Positions 10,595-58,580 of a stretch of DNA of 64,000 bases are shown piece by piece (positions within the stretch are counted from its first letter, which is position 1; every line of letters begins with the position of its first letter). Under the pieces are notes generated by a model, which worked only from the letters and a program-made list of their open reading frames with translations, did not search any database and was not told where the DNA came from. The position numbers and the translations under genes were made by a program. This DNA comes from Pristiophorus japonicus (Eukaryota), in contig NC_091989.1 of the NCBI RefSeq assembly GCF_044704955.1, positions 98,580,001 through 98,644,000 of the forward strand. Reading direction: 5' to 3'.

Positions 10595-10865
10595 TTCTCA
10601 TTCTCTCTCCCTCTCTCTCTCTCTCCCTCTCCCTCTCCCCCTCTCTCTCTCTCTCTCTCTCTGGGCCCTCNNNNNNNNNNNNNNNNNNNNNNNNNNNNNN
10701 NNNNNNNNNNNNNNNNNNNNNNNNNNNNNNNNNNNNNNNNNNNNNNNNNNNNNNNNNNNNNNNNNNNNNNNNNNNNNNNNNNNNNNNNNNNNNNNNNNNN
10801 NNNNNNNNNNNNNNNCCCCCTCTTGCTGGGTCCTCCTGTAAATCTGTTTCTCTCTCTCACTCTCT
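10595..10865. other. (CT)n microsatellite spanning an assembly gap (N run 10671-10815)
   Basis: 145 N's flanked by CT repeats. Confidence 0.97.
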
Positions 10866-12908: not shown

Positions 12909-12935
12909 TTAAAACCTGAGCAGAGCCCCACTGGA
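12909..12935 (-). CDS. Candidate terminal coding exon of the GAIN-domain gene (SSGALLRF*)
   Basis: Acceptor ttctcgctgcag closes a 94-nt GT-AG intron (12936-13029) in phase 0. TAA follows after 8 codons, then AATAAA. Confidence 0.45.
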   Translation of the reverse strand, partial: SSGALLRF

Positions 12936-13029
12936 CTGCAGCGAGAATGTGAAACCAGTCTGGTCTCCCAGGATAATGTAAAGTTATATTGAAGTTTAGT
13001 TATACTGTAATGATGAACATTATTCATAC

Positions 13030-13127
13030 CTTTGATTCCAGTGTTTCAGCAAAGAAGAAGCCCAAACGGTCACACCTGCAGGTGATGTTGTTGTCTCCTG
13101 TCTGAATGTAACATCCATTCGGATTGA
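13030..13127 (-). CDS. Adhesion-GPCR-like (ADGRG-like) exon, GPS motif second half: (V)NPNGCYIQTGDNNITCRCDRLGFFFAETLESK
   Basis: Acceptor ctctccattacag, donor AAG|gtatga, 98 nt, phase 1 to 0. Carries the GC...TCxCxxL.xF pattern of a GPS. Confidence 0.85.
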
Positions 13128-13221
13128 CTGTAATGGAGAGTTACTAATTATCAGAATCATGACCTCATTTACATATTCCAGTACTGATTGATGTCAGCAT
13201 TTTATAAAACTCTTTATTTAC

Positions 13222-13264
13222 CTGTTTGTCCAGAATCCAAGAAGCCGCACACTGGAGGATTTGG
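13222..13264 (-). CDS. Adhesion-GPCR-like exon, GPS motif first half: PNPPVCGFLDSGQT
   Basis: Acceptor cttctccattttag, donor CAG|gtaaat, 43 nt, phase 0 to 1. Matches the short PxCxFWD exon of ADGRG genes. Confidence 0.83.
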
Positions 13265-13548
13265 CTAAAATGGAGAAGATAAATCTTATCATTAGATTGA
13301 CCAGCACTAAAACAGTTTAATCAGCTGTGTAAGTGCTTAAACAGTGAGACATTTTCATTTACCTGAGTAACGGGATGAAGCATAGAATTAGGAGGAACTG
13401 TAGCGCTGGCTGTGAAATAAATGTTTCTGTATTTTCATTAATATCACAAAAAGTGGACAGTGCCTTTATGGAACTTGGGAAGTAATTTTACTGAAATGGG
13501 GACCATGCTACTGAAGTAAAGGTGACAGGTCCAAAACTCTGCGTCCCT

Positions 13549-14197
13549 CGGGCTGTAAATGGAGCATTTTTTGGGCGGACGGGATGAAAAAAGGGGCATC
13601 GCCCGGTTACACCGAGTCCCTGCCCTTCTTCTGATGGTCTGAAGTTCTGGCCATGCTGGGGTCGGCCTATTGATGTCACACAAATGAGGAAAATAGAATT
13701 ACTTTCATTGAAGTACTTTCTTCTAATCGTGCCCTAGTAATGCTGGGGTACAAGGGACGTTCTGTGATCAATTGCATTTCGTAAAGTGGCAAAACTAGAA
13801 CGTAATCATTTTCAATGAATCTTTCCCCACACCTACACAAGCCTGATTAAATAGGGGCACTTCACCTAAGGTGGGCAACCTGTTGTACCAAGAACGTGTA
13901 GGGTATCCACAGGCAATATGTAAATACCCCTGAGACCAGAGGCCAGGGCCGCATCCACGGGGTGGGCAAAAGTTGTGTCCTGTCCCAGATCCTCCCTTCT
14001 AAAGTCTCCATAGATATTTCAGGGCGCAAGTGAAGGAAAATATGTCACAAGACCCAATTTTCCTAATTTGCAAGGCATCATAATATGGCCACACCCCCAT
14101 CATGATCAGAACTTCTGACGGGCATTAAAGAGGTGAGGAGATCCGCTACAAATTCTGCCTCACCTGCCCAGAAAGTGCCCCATTTACAGGCCTCGGG
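13549..14197. mobile_element. Degenerate intronic MITE
   Basis: Inverted termini GGCTGTAAATGGAGCATTTTTTGGGCGG / CTGCCCAGAAAGTGCCCCATTTACAGGCC. Confidence 0.6.
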
Positions 14198-14338
14198 CCA
14201 TGAATGTCAGGGTCATTCAGCCGAACTTCCACATTTACACTGGAGATTATAATACAGACTGTGCGGCACAACTCCAATCCCATAAATGGCCACACACACA
14301 GACGGTGAGGTCTATGATACTGTTCGGTTTTATCTTAC

Positions 14339-14452
14339 CTCCCACTGCAACACGCCATGAAATGTAACTGTCAGAGGGGATGTGAGGTCATCAATGCTCG
14401 AACTCCCTACTCTGATTATAATGTTTGGTGAAACAGGGCTCCTTTCCTGACC
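14339..14452 (-). CDS. Adhesion-GPCR-like GAIN subdomain B exon: GQERSPVSPNIIIRVGSSSIDDLTSPLTVTFHGVLQWE
   Basis: Acceptor ttttttgtgttgttatag, donor GAG|gtaaga, 114 nt open, phase 0 to 0. Contains the GAIN-type IxxLxxPxxxxFxH motif. Confidence 0.85.
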
Positions 14453-15721
14453 CTATAACAACACAAAAAATAGTTACTGAAAATCTACTGATTTAGGATT
14501 AATTACACACAGAAACATTTCAATGATGTTCATTCTGTGGCGATGGTGAGCAGTGCAGGTTTATCAGTGTAACAAATATTTTCTTGGGGACTAAAATTCC
14601 GGGAGGCCTCCTTGCCGGCAGAAGTGCGGTGACCCACAACTCCAAGCCGCCCATGAAGCCTTCTGTAGACCCTGTCCCAAATTGCGGTGAGGGAGCCATT
14701 AACACGTAAAAGCACAGCAGTGATGCCCCCATCCCAGTCCGCCCAGAAAGTCAGAGTGACACCATGCCCAGACACAGGTCTAGAAATTTGGGTGCCCCCA
14801 TTTTTGGGCATGTGGGGCATGCTGGATGCATGCCTTGTGCCCGAATGGTGAGGCCCAAGGTGCCACCGATTTTGGGCCTTGGGCCTCATTACAAAAGGAG
14901 CCAGCATGATGCAACAGTCGCCAGGCGGAGAGAAGACCAAGATCAGGCCGTTGGTCGAGTCGCAGCGACCCTCAGGTAAGTGAAGCCGGGGGTCGGGTCA
15001 GAGGCTGGGGTAAAGGATCGGAGGGTGAGTCAGGAGGATGGGGGGTTGGATTCGGAGGCTGAGGGGGGTGGAATGGGGGGTGGGATCTGGAGCTGCAGTA
15101 ACCAGAAGGGAGGGAGCAGTGGTGTGCTTTTGTAAAATGTGGGTCAGGAGGAGCACTCCTATTCCTCTGGGCTCCATATTCAGGTAAGTAATTGTGAAAA
15201 GCTTACCTTGTAGTGTCACTGGAGGTCCCAAGGTCTGGTTTTACTGAGCGCAGGCAGCGCTGACTGCCTCAGGGCAAATTAATCTTAAAGTGAGGCCCTC
15301 AAACAGGCGTTAGGCCCCTGATTTGTATATGTAAATGGTCTAACGCTTGTTTCAGGCATGGGACCTGGATACCATTTCTTTCCTTTCCCAATCTCGCAGG
15401 CGGTGCACTTCATTCCCGCCCTATAGAGGGCTAAGTGGGCCAGTTAGAGCCTGAAAATCAGGTGCTGCACAGTCACATTTGTACACCAGAGTGGCCTGAC
15501 TCTAACTCCCAAATGGGCATCTCTGGTAAGTGATCAATCCCCAATATGATCGATTACCTGCTTCCCTACTACATTTTTGATGAATGTAAGATCGTCCTCT
15601 CTGCCCATGAGAATTGGGTCAGGATAGGATGGTCTTACAAAAATGATACAAACCTAGGAACAGTGGAGGTCCAGAGAGATTTAGGGGTCCATGTGCACAC
15701 ATCACTGAAGTGTAAGTCTGG

Positions 15722-15878
15722 CAATGTTCCCTTTCTTTTTTGGGGGGGTGTGCGGCCCCTTTAAGGTGCAGCATTCAAATTACCGCGCATGCATGGCTTT
15801 CTATATTTAAAAGCCGGTGAACCGCCTGCGCGGGAGCTACAGGGCACTGTGCGGCCTCACAGCTTAAAGGGAACATTA
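15722..15878. mobile_element. Small MITE with an 8-bp TSD (hAT-type), inside a CR1 fragment (~15640-15930)
   Basis: TIRs CAATGTTCCCTTT / AAAGGGAACATTA. Flanks AAGTCTGG and ATGTCAGG match at 6 of 8 positions. Confidence 0.65.
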
Positions 15879-16234
15879 ATGTCAGGAACAAAAATTAATC
15901 AAAAAGGTTAATGTAATGTTAAACTTTATGGGGCTGAAATTGGTGAAGGCCCCCGCCCACCCAAGTATCGCCCAAAGGACCGCCGATGGCCGCCGAGGGA
16001 CCTGATGATACTTTGGGCGGGGTTTTCATTGAAAAGGTTCTTCAAAGGTTGGCGAGCGGCAAAAGAGGGACTTACGCCACCAATCTGGGCGGCAGCCGGT
16101 GGGAGCTCCCAATCTCAGCGGCAAAAGTACTTGCCACCCAAGTGCCGCCAAGGGTAGAGTCGTACCCACGGAGGGTCGAAGTCCTGAAAAGGAAAAAGAT
16201 TAAAAAAAACCATCGGAAGATCTTCAGGGGACTC

Positions 16235-17390
16235 TGTTATGTCTGCAACACCTTTTAACCAGCATTTCACCGCCACCAGAAGGTGCATCTTTTGGAGTCC
16301 CAGGGGATCCCAGGGCCCCTTGGGAGCACTGTATATAAGCAGGCCTCCCATGCTGTGCCAGCACTCTGGAGTCAGAATAAAGAGACTAATGTCACACTTA
16401 GTCAAGTCTGCAGTACTCAGTCACATTGCTTTATTTCAGACATAACAACTGGTGACGAGTAATAGATAACAAACCATCACGCAAAAATGCAGAGAACTGT
16501 TGGTATCCTGTAGAAATTCTCATAAGAGAAAGATTGAGAAGCCTTCGTGGAGCGACTCGACCAATACTTCATGGCCAATGAGGAAGGGAATGAGAACGCT
16601 GCCAAACGAAGGGCGATCCTCTGTGGGGCAACAACCTATGGCCTCATGAAGAATCTTCTTGCTCCGGTGAAACCAACAACCAAATTGTATGAAGAACTAT
16701 GTACGCTGGTCCAGGAGCACCTAAATCTGAAGGAGAACGTTCTGATACCAAGGTATCAATTTTATAGATGTCAACGATCTGAAGGCCAGGAAGTGGCGAG
16801 CTATGTCGCTGAACTAAGGTGCCTTGCAGGTCATTGCAAATTCGGTGGATTCTTGGAGCAAATGCTAAGAGACTTTTTTGTGCTTGGCATTAACCATGAA
16901 GTTATCCTTCGCAAATTATTGACTGTTAAAACACCGAACCTGAGCAAAGTCATAACAATAGCATAGGCATTTATGTCCACCAGTGATAACACCAAACAAA
17001 TTTCGCAGCATAAAGTTGCATCAGCAAGTACTGGCCACAATGTAATGTCGTTTTCAGACAGGAATGCATATGGCAGAACATACACACCTGCAGCTGCACG
17101 ATTTCAGATGACTCAGAGTCTGCCATCAAGTGTAAATGCAAGGCAATTAACACCTTGTTGGCGCTGTGGAGGTGACCATTGAACCCATCAATGCCGCTTC
17201 AAACACTATGCATGCAAAGGCTGTGGAACAATGGGACACCTCCAGCGAATGTGCAGACAAGCTGCAAACCCTGCAAACCACCACTTGGTTCCCGGTACAC
17301 GACCCATCCACCACAAGGTACGTGCAGTGCCATACATGATGCGAGAGAAGTGGAGATCTAGCTGGACAGGCTGCAACGAGAGGGCATCCG
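16235..17390 (+). mobile_element. Gypsy (Mag-like) 5' remnant: LTR, PBS, gag, internal deletion
   Basis: LTR TGTTA...TAACA at 16235-16447 and PBS TGGTGACGAG at 16450-16459. Gag with a CWRCGGDH knuckle. Jumps from the end of gag to the start of RT near 17285. Confidence 0.88.
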
Positions 17391-17580
17391 GGTGAGGGAG
17401 GTAGGAGGTGGGGGGGGGGGTGGGGGGTGGGTTTTGTGGGGTGGGGGTGTGGGGTGTGGGAGGGTTGGGGTTGGAGGTGGGGGGGATGTGGGGGTGAGGG
17501 GGAGTGGGGGGATGTGGGGGTGAGGGGGTGTGGGGGGATGTGGGGGTGAGGGGGTGTGGGGGGAGTGGGGGGAGCGGGAG
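17391..17580 (+). repeat. G-rich low-complexity tandem tract (GTGGGGGGATGTGGGGGTGAGGGG-like units)
   Basis: Direct reading: many runs of 4 or more G. Confidence 0.85.
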
Positions 17581-18479
17581 GACCTAAAAGAAAACACAAA
17601 AACATTCCTAAAAAATTGCGCATGCCACTACAACACAAATCGTATAAAAATGTAAACAAAAAACACTCGGACTTATTTTGGGAGCACTTTACCTCCCTCT
17701 CCGCTGCCTGGATCGCTGGACCGCTCTGATTTCCGAGGTGGTCATTCCGGGTGCACTTCCGGGCGGACGGGGTGGGCAAGACTCAAAACTCTCGCCGGTG
17801 TCGCAACCAGGGGCGTTGCACACCCGGCGCAGCTCTTCCCGGCGGTGCTGCTCAGCGTCACCGCAAAACCTGACCAGAGGATCGCGACGGGGCGCTGCAG
17901 ACCTCACCGCCACCTTTCACACTGCTCCGGGGTGAAATCTGGACCGCAAAGCACCGGAAAATCCAGCCCAGCGACTCGGAGCTCGAGAAAGTAAGTTTGT
18001 GGCACAGAATAGACACAGGCCTAGAAATTGGTCCGCATAGCGCCATGTTTTTCAATCGCTGCTCGGACTATTATGGCCCCTATATGGCGAGAAGAATGTG
18101 TGTGTATATTTACGGCTGGAATTGCCCCGCCCACCATATTGGGTAAGGTCAACCAAGAGGAATTCTTACCCATGACTGAAACATGGAATAGTCACCGGCA
18201 ATTGGGAAAGATTGGGGATTGGTGGGAGGGATGGGAGTCTGGTAATGAGGAGGAAGGGAAAGATCGGGGGTTGGTGGTGGGGGGGTTCTGTGGATTGTGG
18301 GGCAGAAGGTTCAGGAGCAAGAGTTTGGGGCGGTGGTCGGTCGGTCGGTCGAATGCAATCGTGAGGAGCGGCTGCGATCAGCAGAAGGTTTTCTTGAGGG
18401 TCCAGGGACAGGGGAGGAGCACTCCTGTTCCTCCTGGCTCACATCTGGGGATTTGTGCCAAAATTGGGAGTGTTGTCCC

Positions 18480-21400
18480 ATCGACTAGTCAAACAATAGA
18501 CTGACATAGTCATACTCACAGAATCATATCTTTCAGGCAAAGTCCCAGATTCCTCCATCCCAATTCCTGTTCCACCAGCAGGACAGACGCAACAAAGTTG
18601 CTGGCACAGTAGTACACAGTCGGGGGGCTGGGGGGGATTGGCCCTGGGAGTCCTCAACATTGACTCGGGATCCCATAATGTCTCTTGGCTTCAGGTCAAG
18701 CATGGGAAAGGAAACCTCCTGCTGATTACCAACTACCACCCTCCCTCAGCTGATGAATCAGTATGCCTCCATGTTGAACACCAGTTAGAAGAAGCACTGA
18801 GGGTAACAAGGGCACAGAATGTACTCTGGGTGGGGGACTTCAATGTTCAGCACAAAGAGTGGCTCGTTAGCACCACTACTGACCGAGCTGGCCGGTTCCT
18901 GAAGGTGATAGCTCCCAGACTGGGCTTGTGGCAGGTGGTGAGAGAACCAACCCGTGGGAAAAACCTACATGACCTCCTCTTCACGAATCTATCTGTCACA
19001 GATGCATCTGTCCATGACAGTATTGGCAGGAGATGCCATCGCACAGTCCTTGTGGAGACACAGTACCATCTTAAAAACATAGAAAATAGGTGCAGGAGTA
19101 GGCCATTCGGCCCTTCGAGCCTGCACCGCCATTCAATGAGTTCATGACTGAACATGCAACTTCAGTACCCCATTTCTGCTTTCTCACCATACCCCTTGAT
19201 CCCCCTAGTAGTAAGGATTACATCTAACTCCTTTTTGAATATATTTAGTGAATTGGCCTCGACAACTTCCCGTGGTAGATAATTCCACAGGTTCACCACT
19301 CTCAGGGTGAAGAAGTTTCTCCTCATCTTGGTCCTAAATGGCTTACCCCTTATCCTTAGACTGTGATCCTCTGGTTCTGGACTTCCCCAACATTGGGAAC
19401 ATTCTTCCTGCATCCAACCTGTCTAAACCCGTCAGAATTTTAAACGTTTCTATGAGATCCCCTCTCATTCTTCTGAACTCCAGTGAATACAAGCCCAGTT
19501 GATCCAGTCTTTCTTGATATGTCAGTCCCACCATCCCGGGAATCAGTCTGGTGAACCTTCGCTGCACTCCCTCAATAGCAAGAATGTCCTTCCTCAAGTT
19601 AGGAGACCAAAACTGTACACAATACTCCAGGTGTGGCCTCACCAAGGCCCTGTACAACTGTAGTTACACCTCCTTGCCCCTGTACTCAAATCCCCTCGCT
19701 ATGAAAGCCAACATGCCATTTGCTTTCTTAACCACCTGCTGTATCTGCATGCCAACCTTCAAAGACTGATGTGCCATGATACCCAGGTCTCGTTGCACCT
19801 CCCTTTTTCCTAATCTGTCACCATTCAGATAATAGTCTGTCTCTCTGTTTTTACCACCAAAGTGGATAACCTCACATTTATCCACATTATACTTCATCTG
19901 CCATGCATTTGCCCACTCACCTAACCTATCCAAGTCACTCTGCAGCCTCATAGCATCCTCCTCGCAGCTCATACTGCCACCAAACTTAGTGTCATCCGTA
20001 AATTTGGAGATATTACATTTAATCCCATCGTCTAAATCATTAATGTACAATATAAACAGCTGGGGCCCCAGCACAGAACCTTGCGGTACCCCACTAGTCA
20101 CTGCCTGCCATTCTGAAAAGTACCTATTTATTCCTACTCTTTGCTTCCTGTCTGCCAACCAGTTCTCAATCCACGTCAGCACACTACCCCCAATCCCATG
20201 TGCTTTAACTTTGCACATTAATCTCTTGTGTGGGACCTTGTCGAAAGCCTTCTGAAAGTCCAAATACACCACATCAACTGGTTCTCCCTTGTCCACTCTA
20301 CTGGAAACATCCTCAAAATATTCCAGAAGATTTGTCAAGCATGATTTCCCTTTCACAAATCCATGCTGATTTGGACCTATCATGTCACCTCTTTCCAAAT
20401 GCGCTGCTGTGACATCCTTAATAATTGATTCCAACATTTTACCCACTACCGATGTTAGGCTGACCGGTCTATAATTCCCTGTTTTCTCTCTCCCTCCTTT
20501 TTTAAAAAGTGGGGTTACATTGGCTACCCTCCACTCCATCGGAACTGATCCAGAGTCTATGGAATGTTGGAAAATGACTGTCAATGCATCCGCTATTTCC
20601 AAGGCCACCTCCTTAAGTACTCTGGGATGCAGTCCATCAGGCCTTGGGGATTTATCGGCCTTCAATCCCATCAATTTCCCCAACACAATTTCCTGACTAA
20701 TAAGGATTTCCCTCAGTTCCTCCTTCTTACTAGACCCTCTGACCCCTTTTATATCCGGAAGGTTGTTTGTGTCCTCCTTAGTGAATACCGAGCCAAAGTA
20801 CTTGTTCAATTTGTCTGCCGTTTCTTTGTTCCCCGTTATGACTTCCCCTGATTCTGACTGCAGGGGACCTACGTTTTTCTTTACTAACCTTTTTTTCTTT
20901 ACATATCTATAGAAGCTTTTGCAGTCCGTCTTAATGTTCCCTGCAAGCTTCCTCTCGTACTCTCTTTTCCCTGCACGAATCAAACCCTTTGTCCTCCTCT
21001 GCTGAGTTCTAAATTTCTCCCAGTCCCCGGGTTCGCTGCTATTTCTGGCCAATTTGTATGCCACTTCCTTGGCTTTAATACTATCCCTGGTTTCCCTTGA
21101 TAGCCACGGTTGAGCCACCTTCCCTTTTTTATTTTTACGCCAGACAATTTTTGTAGTTCATCCATACGGTCTCTAAATGTCTGCCATTGTCCATCCACTG
21201 TCAACCCCTTAAGTATCATTCGCCAATCTATCATAGCCAATTCACGCCTCATACCTTCAAAGTTACCCTTCTTTAAGTTCTGGACCATGGTCTCTGAATT
21301 AACTGTTTCATTCTCCACCATAATGCAGAATTCCACTATATTATGGTCACTCTTCCCCAAGGGGCCTCGCACAACGAGATTGCTAATTAATCCTCTCTCA

Positions 21401-22248
21401 TTACACAACACTCAGTTTAAGATGGCCTCCCCCCTAGTTGGTTCCTCGACATATTTGTCTAGAAAACCATCCCTTATGCACTTCAGGAAATCCTCCTCCA
21501 CCGTACTGCTTCCAGTTTGGTTAGCCCAATCTATATGCATATTAAAGTCACCCATGATAACTGCTGCACCCCTAATTTCCTGTTTGATGCCCTCCCCAAC
21601 ATCACTACTACTGTTTAGAGGTCTGTACACAACTCTCACTAACGTTTTTTGCGCTTTGGTGTTCTGCAGCTCTGCCCATATAGATTCCGCATCATCCAAG
21701 CTAATGTCCTTTCTAACTATTGCATTAATCTCCTCTTTAACCAGCAATGCTACCCCACCTCCTTTTCCTTTTATTCTAACATTCCTGAATGTTGAATACC
21801 CTTGGATGTTGAGTTCCCAGCCCTGATCATCCTGGAGCCACGTCTCTGTAATCCCAATCACATCGTATCTTTTAACATCTATTTGCACAGTTAATTCATC
21901 CATCTTATTACGGATACTCCTTGCATTAGGGTACAAAGCCATCAGGCTTGTTTTTTTTAACACCCTTTGTCCTTTTAGAATTATGATGTAGTGTGGCCCT
22001 TCACACTGATGACACCCTCCATCATGATGCAGGGCACTACCATTCATACTAAATGGGATGAATTCAGAATAGATCTAGCAGCTCAAAACTGGACATCCAT
22101 GAGGCACTGTGGGCAATCAGCAGCAGCAGGATTGTATTCCATCACAATCTGTAACCGCATGGCCCGGCACATCCCTCACTCTACCATTACCATCAAGCCA
22201 GGGGACAAACCCTGGATCAAGGAGGAGTGTAGAAGATCATACCAGCAG
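18480..22248 (+). mobile_element. CR1-group LINE endonuclease fragment, split by a younger CR1 (pieces 18480-19072 and ~21998-22248)
   Basis: APE motifs LITNYHPPS and WVGDFN. The sequence resumes colinearly after the insertion, with CTT at both junctions. Confidence 0.75.
19073..21997 (-). mobile_element. CR1 LINE, ORF2 nearly complete (APE + RT), with a few frameshifts and stops
   Basis: ORFs 21412-22047 (IGITETWL, MGDFN), 19664-21118 (GVPQGSVLGP, KFTDD) and 19343-19657. Tail TTTTCTATGTT. Confidence 0.95.
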
Positions 22249-22249
22249 C

Positions 22250-23085
22250 ATCAACAACAAATTCTGTTTATCTAGTGCCTTTAACGTAGAAAAATGTCCC
22301 AAGGCACTTCGATATTATAAGACAAAAAATTTGATACGGATCCATATAAGGAGAAAATAGGGCAGGTGACCAAAAGCTTGGTCAAAGAGGTAGGTTTTAA
22401 GGACCATCTTAAAGGAGAAGAGAGAGATAGAGAGGTGGAGTGGTTTAGACATGGAATGTCAGAGTTTAGGGCCTGGGCAACAGAAGGCACAGCTTTCAAT
22501 GGTTGAGTGATTATAATCAGGGATGTTCAAGAGGGAAGAATTAAAGGAGCGCAGCTATCTCGGGGGGGGGGGGGGCAGGGTGTTGTGGAGCTGGATGAGA
22601 TTACAGAGATAGACAGGGGCGATGCCACGGAGGGATTTGAAAACAAGGATGAGAATTTTGAAATCGAGACGTTGCTTCACCGGGAGCCAATGTTGGTCAG
22701 CGAGCACAGGGGTGATGAGTGAGCGGGACTTGGTGCGAGTTAGGAAACGGCCAGCCGAGTTTTGGATCACCTCTAGTTTACATAGGGTAGAACGTTGAAG
22801 GCCAGCCAGGATTGTGTTGGAATTGTCAATTCTAGTGGTAACAAAGGCAGGGATGAGGGTTTCAGCAGCGGATGAGCTGAGGCAAGGGTGGAGACAGACG
22901 ATGTTACGGAGGTGGAAATAGGCTGTCTTAGTTATGCTGCGGATATGTGTTTGGAATTTCATTTCAGGGTCAAATAATACACCAGGGTTGCGAACAGCCT
23001 CAGACAGATGTTAGGGAGAGGGATGGAGTCAGTGGCTAGGGAACCGAGTTTAGAGACCGAAAACAATGGCTTCGGTCTTCCCAGC
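22250..23085 (-). mobile_element. L2 LINE 3' fragment
   Basis: AYFHLRNI...AETLIPAFVTTRID...HWLPVKQRLDFKIL, and an L2 tail. Confidence 0.88.
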
Positions 23086-23254
23086 ATCAGGCGTAACTGC
23101 ATGAGGTGCCAAGCCGATGAAGCAACAACACAGGACCATATGCATGCTGAACAGCGGAAAATCAGGGCAACCAGCAGGCTACCCCCACCATCACCGATCA
23201 CACCCATCAGCAGCCTCCCGCCAGCTCCTCACCAGCCCCCCCCCCCCCCACCGC

Positions 23255-23510
23255 CCCCCGATCATGGCCATCAGCCGCCCGCACCCCCCCCGATCATGGC
23301 CATCAGCTCCCGCCCACCCCGATCATGGCCATCAGCCGCCCCCCCTCCCTCGATCATGACCATCAGCCCTCCCCTCATCGCCCTCCTGATCATGGCCATC
23401 AGCCACCTTCTCCCCCGATCATGGCCATCAGCTGCCCCCCCCGCCCTCGATCATGGCCATCAGCTCCCCCACCCCCCCGCAACAATCATGGCCATCAGCC
23501 CTCCCCCATC
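23255..23510. repeat. Minisatellite with core GATCATGGCCATCAGC plus C-rich spacers (~30 bp unit, about 9 copies)
   Basis: Direct reading. Confidence 0.85.
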
Positions 23511-24018
23511 CCGGCCTCCTGCCGCTAAATCTCTGCTCCCGCCCACCAGCCAGGCAGTCAATCCGGCCAGTGGGAGTCTGCTCAGAATTATTTAAATGAG
23601 GCCCTGCCATTAGGATCGGCTTCCCCTGTCTCCACCTTTTCATTCAATAAAACCCTGATTCTGCACTGGGTGTCATAACCTTTTCTGGATCAATAATACG
23701 CTCCTGTAGGTAGATGTTTTGCGGGTACACAGCTATATTACCGTGGTATATGGAAGGAGTTAGGATGGAAATACAGAGCTCAGATGATGTGAGCAAGTTT
23801 GAAAATTTAAGGGCTTGTTCACTTGAAACCCATGAATTAAAGACTGGTAATTAAAGAAGTAAGTTGGAGCCACTCCAAAAATACTGTCCCCTCAGCACGT
23901 TACACCTAAAGGGTGAATAATACCAACATTAAACCACAAACTTAATAACAAATATAAGCACTGACAGTGTGGAATCCATATCATTGTAGATTTGGATGGA
24001 GTAGATTAGCTTGATTAC

Positions 24019-24132
24019 CTGGAATGAGGTTTTGTTCTTGAACTGAGTGACAACGGCTTTCGGAGATGTGCCCAACTGATATGTCAATATAACCCGAACA
24101 GCAGCAATCATCGGCTGGTCCTCAGGGCCCAC
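24019..24132 (-). CDS. Adhesion-GPCR-like GAIN exon: VGPEDQPMIAAVRVILTYQLGTSPKAVVTQFKNKTSFQ
   Basis: Acceptor ttgttgtacag, donor CAG|gtaatc, 114 nt open, phase 0 to 0. Ends in FxNxxxFQ like the equivalent ADGRG2/G6 exon. Lies in an island of unique sequence. Confidence 0.8.
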
Positions 24133-24932
24133 CTGTACAACAATGATAACAATATTGTTAAAGCTTTTGATTGTATTTGGCTGAACAACCCAACTACAAT
24201 GAAATACTGCTTTTTATAATTCCATGGTGACAAGCTGAAGGAGGCAGACAATGAACTTTAAACATATGACAAATTGTAACTCAAATGTACATTTCTAATG
24301 AAAGAAAGGACCTGCATTTCGATAGCATCTTTCAGAGGATCAGTAAGTATGGAGTGCAGGCTGTCACTGGGAGCCCCAACACCCAGAGGGAGCAGCCACT
24401 GCCAGGCCGGAATATCCGGGCAGTTCTGCGGTGGGACAACTGATGCATCATGTGAAAAGGAGGAGACTACTTCGAGGAGGGGGCTGCAGCGGGGGAGAGG
24501 ATAAAGTGTCCTGAAGATGGGGGAGGAATTTTTTTGGGCCTTCAGTTTGGGCCTGTCACGAGGACCTGAGGGAAGCAAACTGTGCCTGTTGCTGGGCCCC
24601 CTACCTCCAAGAGAGGACAATGGGCTTTCTGCCCCTGACCCTGGGAGCACCAACACATTTTCCTGGTGGTCCTTTGGGTTGGTGAGGAGCAGCGGTGGAA
24701 GACAGGGGGATCGGACAGATTGCTCGGTCCCACCTCCCTGCTGGTATTTACATGTGATGGGTGGTGAAGAGGCAGCTGGCGGCCTTCCCAGCTGGGACAT
24801 GGGGAGGTAAATTGATGTCAGGCTGGGAATGTGTGGGAAGCCTCGCTGCCCGATTTTCCTGCCTTTTCCCCGGCCACGCTGCCTGATTTGGGGGAGGATA
24901 GAGGAGGAAAATCCAAACCATTGTGTCTTTAC

Positions 24933-25042
24933 CAACTGAGGCATCTCAGAAGAATATATTCTGTTTGTACCATGCACCAAAAATAATCAAACAAAGATGC
25001 TGAATGGTGCACAGTCTTCCTCTGTCGATTGGTTCAATGCAG
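24933..25042 (-). CDS. Possible upstream exon of the GAIN-domain gene; contains an in-frame TGA at 24987-24989
   Basis: Donor TTG|gtaaag in phase 0, acceptor ttttatgtccag. Reads ALNQSTEEDCAPFSIFV*LFLVHGTNRIYSSEMPQL. A shorter exon from the AG at 24961-24962 would avoid the stop. Confidence 0.35.
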
Positions 25043-36399: not shown

Positions 36400-36870
36400 T
36401 GCTGGGTCAATGTGGAGCTGAATAAGTTCAGATGCATTATTGAATAGGGCCTATGATGATGATGATGATGTGGCTTGTCTAATGCAGTGATGAATTGCTG
36501 ATTAACTGCCATGACTAATGTCACCAGAAGACATCTGGAAACAAACTGGTGCATAAAAATTAATTGCTGCTGTTACCTTCACAGCCACAGACAAGGCACT
36601 GCCCTGGTGGAAAGTGTCTGCAAGTCAGGTTCCAACAGCTGGCACATCTCTGTGATGGTGTCAGAGGGAAAATGCAGCCTTCTCAGACACGGGAAAACCT
36701 AGATGGGTCCTGCATAGTCTGCAGACCCTGTGATGTGGATACCTGCAGGTCGGGTGTTGCCTTCGTACACGCTGCTGCAGTCTCTTGGCCTTCATCCTTT
36801 CCTGCTCCACATCCTCATCATCCTCCTCCTCAAAGCTCAGGAACAATGGAATTGTCATTATTTCACTATC
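36400..36870 (-). pseudogene. Harbinger transposase (HARBI1-like) remnant, similar to 11626-11930
   Basis: RYPHHRVCR and TITEMCQLLEPDL...VAVKVTAAINFYA motifs. Confidence 0.72.
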
Positions 36871-36875
36871 CAGAG

Positions 36876-39800
36876 TGTTATATATGTAAACCTGTAAATA
36901 ACTTGTTTAACCACCAGAGGGCTCATCGCCTGGAATCCCAAGGGATCCCACAATCCCTTGGGAGCGTCGGTACTTAAGGATGCCTCACAGGCTGGAGAGG
37001 CACTCTGGGGACCTGCAATAAATACAAAGGTCACACTTTACTTTGAGCTCACAGTTTCTGGTCTGACTCTTTATTCATACACTACAACTGGCGACGAGAT
37101 ACAGATATCGAACCCCACCGCAACGATGCAGAGAACAGTGGGCATCGTGGAGAAGTTTTCGGAGGGAGATGATTGGGAAATTTTCGTGGAGTGACTCAAC
37201 CAATACTTCATGGCCAACGAGCTGGAAGGAGAAGTGAATGCTGCCAAACAAAGGGCGATTCTCTTCACCGTTTCAGGGCACCAATGTATGGCCTCATGAA
37301 AAATCTGCTTGCTCCAGCAAAACCAACAGAGAAATCATAGGATAAAAGTGCACACTGGTCCGGGAGCATCTTAATCCGAAGGAAAGCATTCTGATGGCGA
37401 GGTACCGGTTCTACACATGCAAGAGGTCTGAAGGCCAGGAAGTGGTGAGCTATGTCGCCGAGCTGAGACGACTTGCAGGACATTGTGAATTTGAAAGACA
37501 TTTGGAGCACATGCTCAGGGACTTCTTTGCACTAATCATTGGCCATGAAGTAACACTCAGCAAACTTTTGACTGTAGAGACCCCAATTTTGAGTAAAGCC
37601 ACAGCGATAGCCCAGGCATTCAGCACCACCAGTGACAATATCAAGCAAATCTCTCAGCACAGAGTGCTGCTACAAGTACTGTGAACAAAGTAATGTTGTT
37701 TTCGAATCGTAATGTACAGGGCAGGCCTCACATGCCTCCAGCTACACATCCGCAGATGTCTCAGAATCCACCATCAAGGGTGATGAATGCTAGGCCATTA
37801 ATAGCTTTTTGGCGCTGCAGGGGTGATCATAATTTCCATTCATGCCGCTTCAAAGGATACGTTTGCAAGGGCTACGGAACAATGGGACATCTCCAATGTG
37901 TGTGCAGGCGAGCTGCAAATCCTGCAAACCACTATGTTGCAGAGGAGGACAGATCCACGGTGGATCACGACGAACCAGAGCCTCAGACCGAGGAGGCAGA
38001 GGTATATGGGGTGCACACATTTACCACAAAGTGTCCCCCGATAATCGCTAAAAGTTGAATTAAATGGACTCCCGGTGTCAATGGAGCTGGACACGGGTGC
38101 GAGCCAATCCATTATGAGCAAAAAGACTTTCGATAACTTGTGGTGCAGCAAAGCCTTAAGGCCAGTCCTGTCTCCCATTTGAACTAAACTGAGAACTTAC
38201 ACAAAGAAATTGATTCCCGTAATCGGCAGTGCTATTGTAAAGGTCTCCTACGATGGAGCGGTGCACAAGTCCGCTCTGGGTGGTACCGGGCGATGGCCCC
38301 ACGCTACTCAGCAGGAGCTGGCTGGGGAAGATACGCTGGAACTGGGACGACGTCCGAGCGCTCTCACGTCAACGAAAGTTCATGTGCCCAGGTCCTAAAA
38401 AAGTTCCCCTCGCTATTCGAACCAGGAATCGGGAAGTTCCAAGGAGCAAAAGTGCAGATCCACCTAATTCCTGGGGTACGACCCATCCACCACAAGACGA
38501 GAGCAGTACCATACATGATGAGATAGAGGGTGGAGATCGAGCTGGACCAGCTGCAATGAGAGGGCATCATTTCGCCGATCGAATTCAACGAGTGGGCCAG
38601 TCCAATTGTTCCAGTCCTCAAGGGAGACGGCACGGTCAGAATCTGTGGTGATTACAAAGTAGCTATCAATTGTTGCTCGTTGCAGGATCAAGACCCACTA
38701 CCAAAGGCAGACAACTTTTTTGTGACGCTGGCGGAAGGAAAGACGTTCACGAAGCTGGACTTGACCTCGGCTTACATGATGCAGAAGCTGGAGGAATCAT
38801 CGAAGGCCCTCACCTGCATCAACACACACAAAGGCCTCTTCATCTACAACAGATGCCCATTTGGGATTCGATCAGCCGCGACGATATTCCAGAGAAACAT
38901 GGAAAGCTTACTGAAGTCAGTCCCATACACCGTGGTCTTCCAGGACGACATCTTGGTTACAGGTCGGGACACAGTCGAGCATCTGCAGAACCTGGAGGAG
39001 GTTCTTAGTCGGCTTAATCGTGTGGAGCTCAGGTTAAAATGCTCATTTTCCTGGTGCCTGAGGTGGAGTTCCTGGGGAGAAGAATCGCGGCGGACGGCAT
39101 CAGGCCCACCGATTTGAAGATGGGGGCAATCGAGAACGCACCGAGGCCACAGAACGCGATGGAGCTGCTTTCATTTCTAGGACTCCTGAACTAATTTGGT
39201 AACTTCTTACCGGGTTGCAGCACACTTTTAGAACCACTGCATGCTTTACTGTGTAAGGGAAATGAATGGGTATGGGGTAAAAGCCAAGAAAATGCCTTTG
39301 GAAAAGCTAGAAAACTGTTATGCTCAAACAAATTGCTTGTGTTGCATGATCCATGTAAGTGTTTGGTACTAGCATGTGATGCATTGTCATACGGTGTCAG
39401 GTGTGTGTTGCAACAAGCTAATGAATCTGGGAAATTGCAACTGGTTGCTTATGCATCCAGAAGTCTGTCTAAGGCTGAGAGAGCCTACAGCCTGATTGAA
39501 AAAGAAGGGTTAGCGTGTGTTTATGGGGTAAAGAAAATGCATCAATATCTGTTTGGCCTCAAATTTGAATTGGAAACTGACCATAAGCCCCTGATATCCC
39601 TCTTTTCAGAAAGTAAGTAGATAAATACGAATGCATTGGCCCGCATCCAGAGATGGGCGCTCATGTTGTCCGCATACAACTATGCCATCCGCCACAGGCC
39701 AGGCACAGAGAACTGTGCTGATGCTCTCAGTAGGTTACCATCGCCCACCATGGGGGTGGAAATGGTACAGCCCGCAGATTTAGCTGTGGTAATGAAAGCA

Positions 39801-40891
39801 TTCGAGAGTGAGCAATCACCTATTACCGCCCGACATATTAGTTCCTAGACGAGCCAGGACACCTTACTATCCTTAGCAAAAAACTGTGTGCTTCATGGGA
39901 GCTGGTCCAGTTTCCCATTAGAAATGCAGGAAGAAATAAAGCCGTACCAGCGGCGCAAAGATAAAATGTATTTACAGGCAGACTGCCTTCTGTGGGGTAA
40001 TCGGGTATTGGTACCAAAAAAGGGCAGGGACACTTTCATTAGTGATCTCCACAGTACCCACCCAGGCATTACAATGATGAAAGCGATAGCCAGATCCCAT
40101 GTGTGGTGGCCCGGTATCGATACGGACTTAGAGTCCTGCGTGCACAAATGTAGCACATGTTCACAGTTAAGCAATGTACCCAGGGAGACGCCACTAAGTT
40201 TATGGTCTTTGCCCTCCAAACCCTGATCTAGGGTCTATGTTGACGATGCAGGCCCTTTTCTTGGGAAAATGTTTCTAGTGGTTGTAGATGTGTACTCCAA
40301 ATGGATTGAAGGTGAGATAATGTCGGCAAGCACGTCCGCTGCCACCACTGAAAGCCTGCGAGCCATGTTTGCCACGCATGGCCTGCCTGATGTCCTTGTG
40401 AGTGACAATGGGCTGTGTTTCACCAGTGCCGAGTTCAAAGAGTTCATGACCTGCAATGGGATCAAACGTGTCACATCTGCCCTGTTCAAACCAGCATCCA
40501 ATGGTCAGGCAGAGAGAGCAGTGCAAACAATCAAACAGAGCTTGAAGAGGGTAACTGAAGGTTCACTGCAGACTTGCCTATCCCGAGTCCTGCTTAGTTA
40601 CCGCAGGAGACCCCACTCGCTCACTGGGATTCCACCCGCTGAACTGCTCATGAAAAGGGCACTTAAGATAAGGCTCTCGTTAGTCCACCTGGATCTACAC
40701 GAACAGGTAGAGAGCAGGCGGCTTCAACAAAGTCAATATCATGATAGCCCAAATGTGTCACGTGAAATTGAGATTAATGATCCTGTATTTGTGTTGAATT
40801 TTGGACAAGGTCGCAAGTGGCTTCCCAGCACTGCCGTGGCCAAAGAGGGGAGTAGGTTGTTTCGGTTCAAACTTTCAAATGGACTCATCTA
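36876..40891 (+). mobile_element. Gypsy (Mag-like) LTR retrotransposon: 5' LTR, gag, PR, RT, RNase H, IN; decayed, 3' LTR missing
   Basis: LTR 36876-37086 and PBS TGGCGACGAG at 37089-37098. ELDTGAS protease, FQDD RT, ACDA/ETDHKPL RNase H, HHCC and VSDNG integrase motifs. Many stops. Confidence 0.94.
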
Positions 40892-43800
40892 TTGAAGGAT
40901 TGCTCACCTCATCCACCACCATCTGGGGAGTGCACCCCAAGAAACACCACCCATCGCTGTGAGGGGAGACCTGCCCCCGCAGCTTCCCTCTTTCCCACCC
41001 CCCACTCTCTTTCTCTCTCTCTCTGTCTCTCCCCTCTCTCTCTGAGAGCCCTTTCCTCCTAATTTGGAAAAAAACAATTAAGACAACTGAGCAGAGGGAG
41101 CAAGGCCCCTCCCCAATTGTCAACTAGGGGAGAGGTGTGCCTCATTGAGAGCACCTCTGCTCAGACACTTAAATGAGGCCAATTAAGAACATTAAGGCCT
41201 GTGACTTTAGGGTGGGTGTAGCCCTTAAAGGGACCCCGTGATGGCGACCCCATCCACGCCGGTGGCGGGGTCAGCAACGACATACGCGCAGGCGGCGTCC
41301 ACATCCACGGCGCCTCCTGCGCCTCCTGCTGCCCTGCCACCATTCAGACTTGTAACAAAAAAACACGGGGTCAAGAGCTGCACTCACCCCACAATGAGCA
41401 TCGAGGAGTGCGTGCGGGCAATGGCTGGGGTAGTCGGCCCCTCGGCCATTGTCGCAGCCTCCAAGATGTCTGGGAAGGCCATGTTCTTCCTGGGGTTGGA
41501 GCGGGCGGTGTACCTGACCCTTGAAAAGGGGCTCACGGTGGGCAGGACGTTCCTGCCGGTGGACCCTCTCGAGGCCACAGCGCAGAGGGTCATCCTTTCT
41601 AACGTCTCGCCCTTTGTTCCCGCTGAGCTCCTCCTCCCTCACCTACACCAACTGGGGGAGGTAAGGTCGGGGATTAACCCCATACTGCTCGGCCTCAGGG
41701 AGAACAGCCTGCGCCACGTCTTCTCCTTCGCCGCCAACTTTTTGTCCGGCTGGCGCAGGAGGAGACGACAGAGGGATCATTTAATGTGGTGCACGAGGGG
41801 ACTGCCTACCGCATCTTCTGAACGTTGGACGGCGTGCGGTGCCATGCCTGCAGAGAGGTGGGGCATGTTCGGAAAAACTGCCCCGCCTCCAGGGCCGCCA
41901 AACCATCGAAGGCGGCCAAGGCTGGCGCCGCCGCCACCCCTCCCCCTAGTTGCATCCGCATGCCGGGAGCTGTTGGTGTGCGGGCATCATCAGGGGCCTT
42001 TGTTTTCACGGCCTCTGGCGGGGGGTAGGGAGAGCGTCCGATCGGAAAGAAGGCGCGGAAGAAGGCGAAACATCTTGAGGCGGGTCCCCTCAGTGAGCCA
42101 GACAGTTTGATCACCGCGCTTAGCCCAACCCAGTCATCGGCGAGCACGGGGTGCCCTGAGCCTGTGCCCGAGCCCTTGACCAATACCTCAGCGGGGTTCG
42201 GGCGCGGGCAAGATAAGAAAAAGGGGGGAATGGAGCGGGAGGCCTCGGCAGACATGGAGGCCTCCCTGCCTCCGCGCCCCCCCAGGAACAAAAGGAGGCA
42301 CCGCTCCAATGAGGCGGAGGGGGAACAACATCCCTCCGCAGAGGAATCGGTGCCCGCCGCGTGTCCCGCGTCCCCCACCAGCGCCCCCAAACTGCGCCGT
42401 AGGCAGGAGGAATCTGTCCCCGGGGAGGGTGAGGCAGTCGAGGCTGGGGGATGGCGTGGAAGATCTGCCTGTCGTGGGGGGCGCAGAGCCAGCGGAGGAA
42501 TGCGTTGCTGCCAGGTTGAGCGTCCCGGGGACTGAGTCGGGCGGGGCTGAAAAGGCCGAACTTGAGCCCACCCAGCTATTAACCAACTTCCCCCGGGAGT
42601 CGCTCGACCCGGAAGAAACAGAAAATGTGAACAATTTTAACGATTCTGTGTACGCTGGGCCGGGGGTGGCGGCGGGGAGGGGGAAGAACAACAACCCTCG
42701 CCCCCTACTTTGGAGCTGGGGCACTTGGAGGACCTGGAGAATTACTTTGGCCAGGTCTCTCCATGTTCCCCGGTTCCTGGGGCGGAGGAGGAACCTCTTC
42801 CGCTGTCGCTTCCTGACCCAGCACCACTTTTAAAAGAGCCCAGTGGGGACTCCTCTGCCGACGATCCTGGGGATGGGATCGGGGCAGAGCCAGGGCCGGA
42901 TGGAGCGGCCGGGCCGTTTGCCGTACCTCGTGCGGTCGACGGGCCGGCTGCTGGCGGCGACCGCCCGGAGGGGGACGGGGACTCGGTGGGGGACTCGGGA
43001 GAAGATCTTGAGTCCATCGCCAGTGAGGCGGTGGAACTCCTCGTGCCCGCCGCTGAGCCCCCCTCATTCCTGTAAAGGAACTCCGGGACTTTTTGGCCCA
43101 GAGCCAGGGTCGCCGCAACCGAGCCCATCTGACCCGGGAAAAATGGTCCGAGCCGGGGCTGCTCATCGCGTCTGTCCGCGCCGCCGCTAAAACCATGGCC
43201 GCGGGCGGGCACTTATCAAAGGCGCAAGGCCTTGAGCTGCGCCGGCTCAAAAGGTTCCTCGCTGGGCTGCTGAAGGAGTGGAGGTCAACAAACGACTCCA
43301 CTCCCCCCCCCACAATAGGTTAGGTAGAGGTTGCACTATGCTTTTGCCATGAAGATAACCATAGCCAGCCTCAACATCAACGGCGGCAGAGAGATACGCC
43401 GTAGATTTAACAAATTTTCGCTCCTGCGGGAGGGGAAATATGCGGTGTGCTTCCTGCAAGAAACCCACACCGTTCCGGGAGACGAAGCCACGTGGCTCCT
43501 GGAATGGCAAGGAGAGGTCTGCATGAGCCACTTCTTGTGGGGTGGCCATCTTGCTGGCCCCGCATTTTCAACCGGAGATCTTGGGGGTCGAGGAGCCCGT
43601 GCCAGGCCGCTTGCTGCACGTCACGGTTCGCCTGGGGGACGTGCCGCTCCATCTCGTGAACCTATACGCCTCTCAGCCCGGCCCGCAGCAAGCGCGATTC
43701 TTCGAAGAAGTGTCCGCTCTTCTTGGCTCCGTCGACGTCGGCGACTGCATTGTCCTCGGGGGGGATTTTAACTGCACCCTCGAGGCGAGGGACCGCTCCG

Positions 43801-49800: not shown

Positions 49801-49968
49801 CTTGTAGAATTTATGATTTTATGGCCCCAAAAATAATATATTTTTAAGTCAAAAAAAAAGTTTTAAAAAAAGAAAAAAAAAAGGGCAGTTTGAAAAATGT
49901 TTGGAGTGTCCCCCAGATTGGGGGGCATTTGATTTAATGTTTATTTCGTTATCCAACCAAAAAGAGTT
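40892..49968 (+). mobile_element. Tx1-clade (L1 group) LINE, apparently full length, with a 2.7-kb internal tandem duplication
   Basis: ORF1 from 41238 with a CHACREVGHVRKNC knuckle. ORF2 has APE (ITIASLNING, FLQETH, GGDFN, SDH), RT (GVRQGCP, YAND) and C-terminal CNFC...HVFIEC. AT-rich 3' UTR; CpG-rich body. Confidence 0.92.
46566..48740 (+). CDS. Longest open segment of Tx1 ORF2 (RT domain), 724 aa
   Basis: ORF track. The RT motif is YAND rather than YADD and a stop precedes the C-terminal domain, so it is probably inactive. Confidence 0.8.
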   Translation: MWAKLASFRAWTGSAYWHFNNQLLEDERFQDSFRRFWADWRRKQGGFPSLRLWWDVGKAHIRVFCQEYVRGSTKRRAARVECLEKEVLDLASRLGQVVEDPALRMVYKAKKAPLKDLQFVGSRGAFVRSRIRFLQDLDRGSPFFDSLEKRQSVRKQLLTLLADDGSLVSDPEGVNNRAREYYGALFSPEPSSEEAHRVLWEDLPKVSPEGAENLEAPLSLAELTGALDRFSRGKAPGLDGLTMEFHRAFWDVLGCGYARVLGESLASGEMPLSWRRAVIVLLPKKGDLRLLKNWCPVSLLSTDYKIFARAMSARLGAVLDHMIHPDQSYTVPGRTIHDNIHLVRELIHHSQEAALSVAFLSLDQENVFDRVDHDYLFGTLRALGFGTHFVARIRLLYAAAECLIKVNGSLTAPLRFGRGVRQGCPMSSQLYAICVEPFLRLLWMRLTGLALQGPGVEVVLSAYANDMLLAVADPADLWRMRECQEIYSAASSTRINWEKCSGLLVGQWQVDSLPEELRPFAWSTTHLLYLGVYLRPDKEAWPANWQELEAKVAARLGRWTGLLRVQVINQLVAAMLWYRLVTLTPPPAFVNKIQKKLVAFFWNNRKHWVSATVLSLPLGEGGQTLVCVSAQLATFCLQTLQKYLYVEPPPRWRALAMYFFCQQHGLNYDTQLLFVSLGGVRTAVQELPVFYKELTRVWNKVSTKRSSPPAGVAAVLQEPLLGNP

Positions 49969-58400: not shown

Positions 58401-58580
58401 CAAGCTTAATCACTGCCTTTCATATAAACATCACCAGAACCTTGGGAAGAATCTAAAGAGTAGTATCAACTTGATCCAGAAATACACCGGATCCACATGG
58501 GGAGCAGACACACAAAGCCTCCGTAAGCCAGCACTCGCCCTGGTATACTCTACAGAGGAGTATTGCTCTCCGGCATGTGT
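55440..58580 (+). mobile_element. Vingi/Ingi-group LINE (APE + RT), decayed and 3'-truncated
   Basis: IRICQLNFEG, VLQETH and YNPDLCF (APE). CCDQVVALTTHI, GLPQGSVLAP, YADD and YFRRWRLRPNP (RT), typical of Vingi. Confidence 0.78.
56177..56878. mobile_element. Harbinger-type MITE with a 3-bp TSD
   Basis: TIRs GGCCCTGAAA / TTTCAAGGCC, TSD AAT at 56174-56176 and 56879-56881. Removal restores the LINE frame ILNNFTRIQHR. Confidence 0.85.

What the first reader, a model, noticed from the sequence alone, without database searches (positions are those of the whole stretch)
12909..25042. Hidden spliced gene encoding a divergent ADGRG-like GAIN/GPS domain, missed by the ORF track
Seen: four minus-strand exons with canonical GT-AG sites (24019-24132, 14339-14452, 13222-13264, 13030-13127) splice in frame to VGPEDQPMIAAVRVILTYQLGTSPKAVVTQFKNKTSFQ|GQERSPVSPNIIIRVGSSSIDDLTSPLTVTFHGVLQWE|PNPPVCGFLDSGQT|VNPNGCYIQTGDNNITCRCDRLGFFFAETLESK. 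Established, from recall: ADGRG2/G6-type genes have the same exon series, with breaks after FQ, after the xFxH strand, in phase 1 after CxFWD, and after the GPS. Inference: this is a highly diverged, possibly lineage-specific adhesion-GPCR relative. It is the only host gene evident in the window.
Basis: partly seen in the sequence, partly recalled or inferred. Interest (0 to 1): 0.78.

Follow-up and report, generated by a model that had tools for sequence, protein, structure and literature searches.

The report
Shark receptor with doubled GAIN domain
Four exons buried among transposons encode part of an extra, probably non-self-cleaving GAIN domain from a shark family of adhesion receptors whose predicted proteins carry two such domains in a row, whereas the adhesion receptors described in the papers consulted have one.

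Summary
The four exons are real: canonical AG/GT sites, a 123-aa open frame, and a Pfam GPS hit above cut-off. They are not the usual membrane-proximal GAIN. They match at 75-80% the N-terminal GAIN (GAIN-1) of a shark ADGRG family built PLL-like domain / GAIN-1 / linker / GAIN-2 / membrane part, and match GAIN-2 of the closest paralog at only 40%.

Eleven predicted proteins from six shark species carry both GPS motifs. GAIN-1 never has the catalytic H-X-S/T triad (0 of 13; RLG here), while GAIN-2 always has HLT (11 of 11). The family ends in a full 7TM, a conserved single helix, or no membrane segment. In two species GAIN-1 and linker are 80-100% identical between single-helix-type and 7TM paralogs while GAIN-2 is 29-55%, suggesting paired receptors homogenised by gene conversion.

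No other exon lies in the window, so whether this copy is a complete expressed gene is open. Ten literature searches found no description of tandem GAIN domains. Verdict: new variant of a known kind.

The parts
24019..24132 (-). Exon 1 (38 aa, phase 0-0): first part of GAIN-1 subdomain B, ending in the FQ motif; corresponds to P0004 residues 289-326
   Evidence: 31/38 identical to P0004; skipped exactly in P0008 and P0009
14453..24018 (-). Intron 1, 9566 nt, filled with LINE and Gypsy-like remnants
14339..14452 (-). Exon 2 (38 aa, phase 0-0): GAIN-1 subdomain B strands; P0004 327-364
   Evidence: 30/38 identical to P0004; best splice score of 48 minus-strand candidates
13222..13264 (-). Exon 3 (14 aa + 1 nt, phase 0-1): first GPS cysteine; the Trp seen at this place in GAIN-2 is Leu; P0004 365-378
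   Evidence: 11/14 identical to P0004
13030..13127 (-). Exon 4 (33 aa, phase 1-0): remaining three GPS cysteines, degenerate triad R-L-G in place of H-L-T, and the last strand; P0004 379-411
   Evidence: Pfam GPS 23.2 bits > 22.5; 26/33 identical to P0004 and 28/33 to P0003
10671..10815 (.). Assembly gap (145 N) 2.2 kb downstream of exon 4, beside a (GA)n run; could hide the linker exon(s) expected next
   Evidence: that it hides exons is conjecture

Best explanation
The exons encode subdomain B of the distal GAIN domain (GAIN-1) of one member of a shark ADGRG gene array with the architecture PLL-like domain, GAIN-1, Ser/Thr-rich linker, GAIN-2, then a 7TM or a single helix. The rest of the gene lies outside the window (or partly in the gap) behind long transposon-filled introns. 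SHOWN by computation: exon reality, assignment to GAIN-1, GAIN homology and fold of GAIN-1 in the closest paralog, loss of the catalytic triad in GAIN-1 and its retention in GAIN-2. INFERRED from established GAIN chemistry: GAIN-1 does not self-cleave and cannot hand a tethered agonist to the membrane domain, so it serves as a disulfide-locked ectodomain module (ligand binding, spacer or force-bearing element together with the PLL-like domain), while GAIN-2 keeps cleavage and Stachel signalling. INFERRED, weaker: this copy is most likely of the single-helix type, because its nearest relative P0004 is.
For: 80% (98/123) to P0004 GAIN-1 versus 40% (37/92) to its GAIN-2; the latter still scores 127 against a maximum of 54 in 1000 shuffles. 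GAIN-1 versus GAIN-2 profiles: probability 99.3%, E=1.4e-20, 177 columns covering subdomains A and B; PLL control 0.3%. Atlas model of P0004 185-411 matches ADGRG2 and ADGRG4 clusters at TM 0.82-0.83, and 10 of 10 rows are GPS-bearing clusters. Both GPS motifs are present in 11 models from 6 shark species. Triad H-X-S/T: 0 of 13 GAIN-1 sequences, 11 of 11 GAIN-2; His as base and Ser/Thr as nucleophile are required (PMC13062082, Introduction). The window peptide nests in the GAIN-1 clade (97/95), sister to P0004 (95/83). Gene models of other copies repeatedly start or stop at the intron before exon 1 (P0017 and P0022 end there, P0010 and P0026 begin in exon 1), which fits a long intron and the 40 kb without exons upstream.
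Against: No other exon of the family was found in 39.9 kb upstream or 13 kb downstream. No expression data. All relatives are predicted gene models, many visibly fragmentary or exon-skipping. The fold evidence is for a paralog and rests on an Atlas model of low overall confidence (pTM 0.38, pLDDT 0.55); no independent model was obtained. P0003 (PLL + GAIN-1 only) found no adhesion GPCR among solved structures at E<=10, and Pfam GAIN (PF16489) hit none of the 27 proteins scanned, canonical GAINs included. GAIN-1 clusters by species rather than by receptor type, so closeness to P0004 says little about this copy's membrane anchor.
Confidence: 0.7

Rival explanations
1. Orphan four-exon block: a partial duplicate or pseudogene fragment of a tandem-GAIN gene left by birth-and-death evolution in the array; not part of a working gene.
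For: No flanking exons within 40 kb upstream and 13 kb downstream. The array holds many fragmentary models. A neutral-decay simulation leaves frame and splice sites intact in 12% of runs at the divergence of this copy's own branch (about 0.087 per site), so decay is not excluded.
Against: Frame, all eight splice dinucleotides and all four GPS cysteines are intact. Only 0.4% of simulated copies stay intact at 21% amino-acid difference, the full distance to P0004 (indel rate assumed). Intron 1 alone is 9.6 kb, so long introns are normal here.
Confidence: 0.17
2. The gene ends after GAIN-1 and makes a secreted PLL + GAIN-1 protein, like P0002 and P0003, acting as a soluble decoy or ligand.
For: P0003 and P0002 stop shortly after GAIN-1 with no hydrophobic segment above threshold and are 79% identical to the window peptide. 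No linker exon was found downstream.
Against: Exon 4 ends in a GT donor. The short terminal exon of P0002/P0003 has no match in the window. Such short models may be truncation artefacts. The nearest relative in the tree is the membrane-anchored P0004.
Confidence: 0.06
3. The tandem architecture is an annotation artefact: neighbouring single-GAIN genes in an array were fused by the gene predictor.
For: All evidence is predicted models. Paralogs lie on one contig length per species (for example five Chiloscyllium punctatum proteins at 85,023,262 nt), a setting that favours chimeric models.
Against: The same junction and a conserved linker (49-65% between species) recur in 11 models from 6 species. 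GAIN-1 forms its own long-branched clade (100/99), lacks the triad in every case, and is not followed by a TM1 in any model examined.
Confidence: 0.04
4. One reading: the ordinary membrane-proximal GAIN of a highly diverged single-GAIN adhesion GPCR.
For: GPS hit; exon series like that of GAIN-2.
Against: Twice as similar to GAIN-1 as to GAIN-2 of the same protein; no TM or 7TM exon in the window by family profile.
Confidence: 0.03

Closest known systems
ADGRG subfamily adhesion GPCRs (ADGRG2/GPR64, G6/GPR126, G3/GPR97, G5, G4, G1/GPR56)
   Same: The 7TM member P0021 has its nine best solved-structure matches in ADGRG (G2 E=6e-89, G6, G3, G5, G4, G1) before ADGRL3 at 3e-34. GAIN-2 has the HLT triad. 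GAIN-1 fold matches ADGRG2/G4 clusters.
   Different: Two complete GAIN domains in tandem; the distal one lacks the triad and both GPS tryptophans seen in GAIN-2. Many paralogs end in one helix or none.
ADGRG1/GPR56 PLL-GAIN ectodomain
   Same: The N-terminal domain looks pentraxin/LamG-like (features 0.95, TM 0.55-0.63). Pfam PLL matches P0021 over profile 3-132 of 134 but below cut-off (15.4 versus 25 bits), and the relative P0027 passes it (E=7e-15). PLL linked to GAIN is described for G1 (PMC13197933 passage).
   Different: In G1 the GAIN next to PLL is the cleaved, membrane-proximal one. Here PLL sits on GAIN-1, and GAIN-2 is inserted before the membrane.
Drosophila Cirl 1TM and mammalian ADGRG6 1TM isoforms
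   Same: GAIN-bearing single-pass proteins beside 7TM forms; these heteromerise and tune signalling (abstract of 10.1101/2023.01.11.521585; PMC13197933 passage).
   Different: Those arise by intron retention from one gene. The shark single-helix forms have their own GAIN-2 and helix sequence: 22-24% to the 7TM-type TM1 region within a species, 41-61% to each other between genera.
EMR2/CD97 (ADGRE2/E5) pair
   Same: Near-identical N-terminal domains (97.5%) on receptors whose GAIN and 7TM are about 50% alike (PMC8878244 passage): the same pattern as the within-species shark pairs.
   Different: There the shared part is EGF repeats and both partners are 7TM receptors; here it includes a whole GAIN domain and one partner lacks the 7TM.
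Cleavage-incompetent GAIN domains such as ADGRB1/B3 (RLS triad)
   Same: Arg in place of the catalytic His (PMC13062082 Introduction).
   Different: Here the nucleophile is lost too (Gly), and the dead GAIN is an extra distal copy, not the only one.

Membership tests
GAIN domain | GPS motif (Pfam PF01825) at the C-terminal end of subdomain B | tested here: met
   exon 4 alone: 23.2 bits, cut-off 22.5; four cysteines at peptide positions 82, 96, 107, 109
GAIN domain | Helical subdomain A plus beta-sandwich subdomain B fold | tested here: met
   on the 80%-identical paralog P0004: Atlas TM 0.82-0.83 (low-confidence model) and profile match to GAIN-2 over A and B. The window itself holds only subdomain B exons.
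Autoproteolytic GAIN | H-X-S/T triad at the GPS | tested here: not met
   R-L-G in the window; 0 of 13 GAIN-1 sequences have it, 11 of 11 GAIN-2 do
Canonical membrane-proximal GAIN | Directly followed by TM1 | tested here: not met
   in paralogs the matching domain is followed by a linker and GAIN-2, or by a short end; the window's own next exon was not found
Adhesion GPCR | 7TM domain (PF00002) in the same polypeptide | tested here: inconclusive
   no 7TM exon in the window. In the family, 4 tandem-GAIN models have a full 7TM (P0010, P0011, P0012, P0021), 7 end in one helix and a short tail, 2 have none.
ADGRG subfamily | GAIN-2/7TM most similar to ADGRG members | tested here: met
   for the family:
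ADGRG1/3/5 group versus ADGRG2/4/6 group | Phylogenetic placement of the 7TM; PLL domain for G1 | tested here: inconclusive
   best scores are to G2 and G6 but the N-terminal domain is PLL-like; no tree with named ADGRG references was built
PLL domain (family N-terminus, outside the window) | Pfam PF18587 above cut-off | tested here: inconclusive
   15.4 bits versus 25 on P0021, no hit on the other members; family profile hits PLL-positive P0027 at 17 bits
Cirl-type 1TM isoform | Made by intron retention from the 7TM gene, sharing its GAIN and TM1 | tested here: not met
   single-helix and 7TM forms differ in GAIN-2 end (46-55%) and TM1 region (22-24%) within a species
Functional gene | Spliced transcript and purifying selection | not testable with these tools
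   no RNA data or paralog DNA; the intactness simulation is only suggestive

The most novel reading that the evidence does not exclude
Sharks have a paired-receptor system built from adhesion GPCRs. Signalling 7TM receptors and non-signalling single-helix (and perhaps secreted) partners share a PLL + dead-GAIN + linker ectodomain that gene conversion keeps nearly identical within a species while it diverges quickly between species. GAIN-1 would be a GAIN domain freed from cleavage and repurposed as a fast-evolving recognition surface or force buffer in series with the cleavable GAIN-2, possibly in immunity.
Probability: 0.25. Interest if true: 0.82.

Novelty: new variant of a known kind. Interest (0 to 1): 0.62.

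Why it matters
The GAIN domain is described as the membrane-proximal unit of adhesion GPCRs (PMC13197933 passages). A natural receptor with one cleavable and one uncleavable GAIN in series separates the domain's roles (cleavage and tethered agonist versus ligand binding and load bearing), which the field debates. It gives a ready internal control for force-unfolding and Stachel experiments. Single-helix paralogs conserved across three shark genera would turn the 1TM/7TM partnership known from splice isoforms into a gene-level system. The vertebrate aGPCR survey consulted does not mention sharks in its main text (PMC8584163), so this lineage looks under-examined.

Tried and rejected
Searching the window for further exons found only the four known ones: 85 30-aa pieces of P0001-P0003 against six frames with shuffled controls (two stray plus-strand pieces scored 48 against a shuffled maximum of 46 and were judged chance), tblastn with P0001-P0027, and a 974-position profile of 14 members against 3193 fragments (exons 1, 2, 4 at 33-53 bits, next 3.9, reversed control 3.4; exon 3 is too short for this test, so other very short exons could be missed). 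Exon 4 against solved structures gave only a chance hit (TFIID subunit, E=0.19). P0003 gave only contactin-2 at E 0.01-0.07, rejected as chance given. The Pfam 'ID' hit on exon 4 (E=0.013, below cut-off) was rejected. Origin of the tandem, internal duplication versus fusion of two neighbouring genes, is unresolved: a single GAIN-1 + GAIN-2 clade is not rejected (p-AU 0.119) and not shown (20 rows, only four single-GAIN outgroups, long branches). The motif search for the exon upstream of exon 1 was mis-specified and returned nothing; one search replaced it. Atlas feature search for GAIN-1 scored only 0.88, a lead. No independent structure prediction or fold search of PDB was obtained, and it is unknown whether this copy is annotated inside P0004's five-member cluster.
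Full report
OBSERVATION. Exon 4 alone passes Pfam's GPS cut-off (23.2 versus 22.5 bits); exons 1 and 2 hit no family. None of the exons is in a self-repeat. The rest of the window is mobile DNA as far as tested: 14 of 25 long ORFs hit reverse transcriptase, endonuclease, integrase, protease, Myb/SANT or DDE domains and 11 hit nothing; Rfam gave no match.

RELATIVES. Exon 2 found three 'uncharacterized' Pristiophorus japonicus proteins among 10 candidates. P0001 found 19 proteins among 8000 scored: 17 from seven shark species (Pristiophorus japonicus, Scyliorhinus canicula, Chiloscyllium punctatum, C. plagiosum, Stegostoma tigrinum, Heptranchias perlo, Carcharodon carcharias) and two teleost receptors that match only the canonical GAIN. 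The N-terminal 372 residues of P0004 found 13 proteins among 2801 candidates, all from sharks. An exhaustive search of 1.84 billion representatives with P0003 gave 10 hits, six without names; two of these (P0025, P0027) are distant PLL-like proteins with a single GAIN. No ray, chimaera or bony-fish protein with the tandem was seen, but the searches were word-limited or nameless, so shark restriction is suggested, not shown. That the window is shark DNA is an inference from these matches. No 100% match appeared; the product could be hidden in a 90% cluster, which stayed unchecked.

WHAT THE EXONS ARE. P0001 has two GPS stretches. The window peptide is 80% identical to residues 289-411 of P0004 and 40% to its second GAIN. 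Eleven models from six species carry both GPS motifs; Pfam reports two stretches in seven of them. The first copy is a whole GAIN: profile alignment to the second gives 99.3% probability over 177 columns including the helical part, against 0.3% for a control region, and the Atlas model of P0004 185-411 matches ADGRG2 and ADGRG4 clusters at TM 0.82-0.83 (whole-protein pLDDT only 0.55). The domain in front is pentraxin/LamG-like and probably PLL, although Pfam's cut-off is not reached. The 7TM member's best solved matches are all ADGRG. Architecture: PLL-like, GAIN-1, linker, GAIN-2, membrane part. Exon skips in the models fall on the window's borders, and GAIN-2 breaks at equivalent places (556-600, 601-639 in P0004 numbering), as expected if a block of exons was copied. 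Whether by internal duplication or fusion of neighbours is unresolved.

MECHANISM. Cleavage needs His as base and Ser/Thr as nucleophile (PMC13062082, Introduction read). GAIN-1 has RLG, HLG, SLG, ILS or HQR: 0 of 13 fit, while GAIN-2 has HLT in 11 of 11. The window copy has lost both catalytic residues and both tryptophans seen in GAIN-2 but keeps four cysteines. Inference: GAIN-1 is a folded, uncleaved ectodomain module; its last strand is about 300 residues from the membrane and cannot act as the tethered agonist; GAIN-2 does the canonical work. HLT alone does not guarantee cleavage (same paper), so GAIN-2 activity is also inferred.

THREE ENDINGS AND SHARED ECTODOMAINS. Four tandem models have a full 7TM. 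Seven, from three genera, end in one hydrophobic helix and a short basic tail that aligns between genera; P0007 has a GAIN-2 of this type with a different tail; two isoforms stop after GAIN-1. In Stegostoma, P0007 and the 7TM P0021 are 91-100% identical from PLL to linker and 31-55% in GAIN-2. In C. punctatum, P0006 and P0011 are 80-97% identical in GAIN-1B and linker and 29-55% in GAIN-2. Between those species the same N-terminal segments are 54-70%, while the end of GAIN-2 follows type (73-90% same type, 53-57% different type). In Pristiophorus the switch lies further downstream, inside GAIN-2. This is the pattern of gene conversion or exon shuffling in an array, with a precedent in EMR2/CD97 (PMC8878244 passage). 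It rests on two clear pairs and one partial pair of predicted models, and chimeric annotation could mimic it.

IS THIS COPY A WORKING GENE? No other exon was found in the window. For a whole gene: intact frame, splice sites and cysteines; a 9.6-kb intron inside the block; models of other copies break at the intron before exon 1, two of them running into Harbinger-like sequence; an assembly gap 2.2 kb downstream. Against: a neutral copy would stay intact 12% of the time over this copy's own branch length (0.4% over the full distance to P0004, assumed rates). I put about 0.8 on a working gene.

LITERATURE. Ten searches. 'Two GAIN domains' occurs in no paper held; variants such as tandem, double, second, multiple or additional GAIN gave nothing relevant in the listings shown (20 of 41 listed); shark or elasmobranch with ADGRG terms gave nothing on this family in the listings shown. 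Seen: PMC13197933 passages ('shark' and 'tandem' absent from the 300,000 characters held); PMC13062082 abstract and Introduction; PMC11697300 term search with no occurrences; PMC12716839 passages; PMC8584163 passages, no 'shark' or 'cartilag' in the main text; 10.1101/2023.01.11.521585 abstract and outline; PMC13470171 passages; PMC8878244 passages. No supplements were read; sequence tables in PMC8584163 or PMC11697300 could include these proteins. Subscription papers are not covered. The labels GAIN-1 and GAIN-2 are mine.

VERDICT. A real gene fragment, and more interesting than first read: part of an apparently undescribed tandem-GAIN ADGRG family of sharks. It is a variant of a known receptor class, its members already sit in databases as predictions, and function is inferred. 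Interest 0.62.

Noticed in passing
window 41200-49900 (+): GC-rich L1/Tx1-like LINE (endonuclease twice, RT, zf-RVT) with a 2.3-kb internal direct duplication, 42751-45041 and 45305-47589 at 92.6%, and a (TC)n stretch just upstream near 41000-41040. The Tx1 label is from recall.
   Followed up: partly
window 59400-59870 (+) and 61589-62271 (-): Myb/SANT ORF and DDE_Tnp_4 nuclease ORF facing each other, the layout of a PIF/Harbinger transposon (name from recall).
   Followed up: partly
window 36900-41000 (+), with related copies at 1-1600 and 16270-17280: Degenerate Gypsy-like LTR retroelement remains: protease, RT and integrase hits.
   Followed up: partly
window 55600-58630 (+): A further non-LTR RT element, AT-richer than its neighbours and without a large second copy in the window.
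   Followed up: no
P0016 and P0017 C-terminal tails; window 36469-36671, 62149-62504, 63642-63779: These gene models leave the receptor at the intron before exon 1 and run into Harbinger-like sequence 35-64% identical to window copies, so they are probably broken annotations and not from this locus.
   Followed up: yes
P0012 residues 259-328: The exon-2-type segment occurs twice in tandem in this Chiloscyllium plagiosum model, and its linker is expanded by Ser/Thr-rich repeats.
   Followed up: no
P0025 (658 aa): Single-GAIN 7TM receptor with a PLL-like domain matching the family (28.8 bits) and a 7TM 45-50% identical to the shark 7TM members: a candidate for the pre-duplication state.
   Followed up: partly
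window 10671-10815: Run of 145 N beside a (GA)n microsatellite.
   Followed up: no
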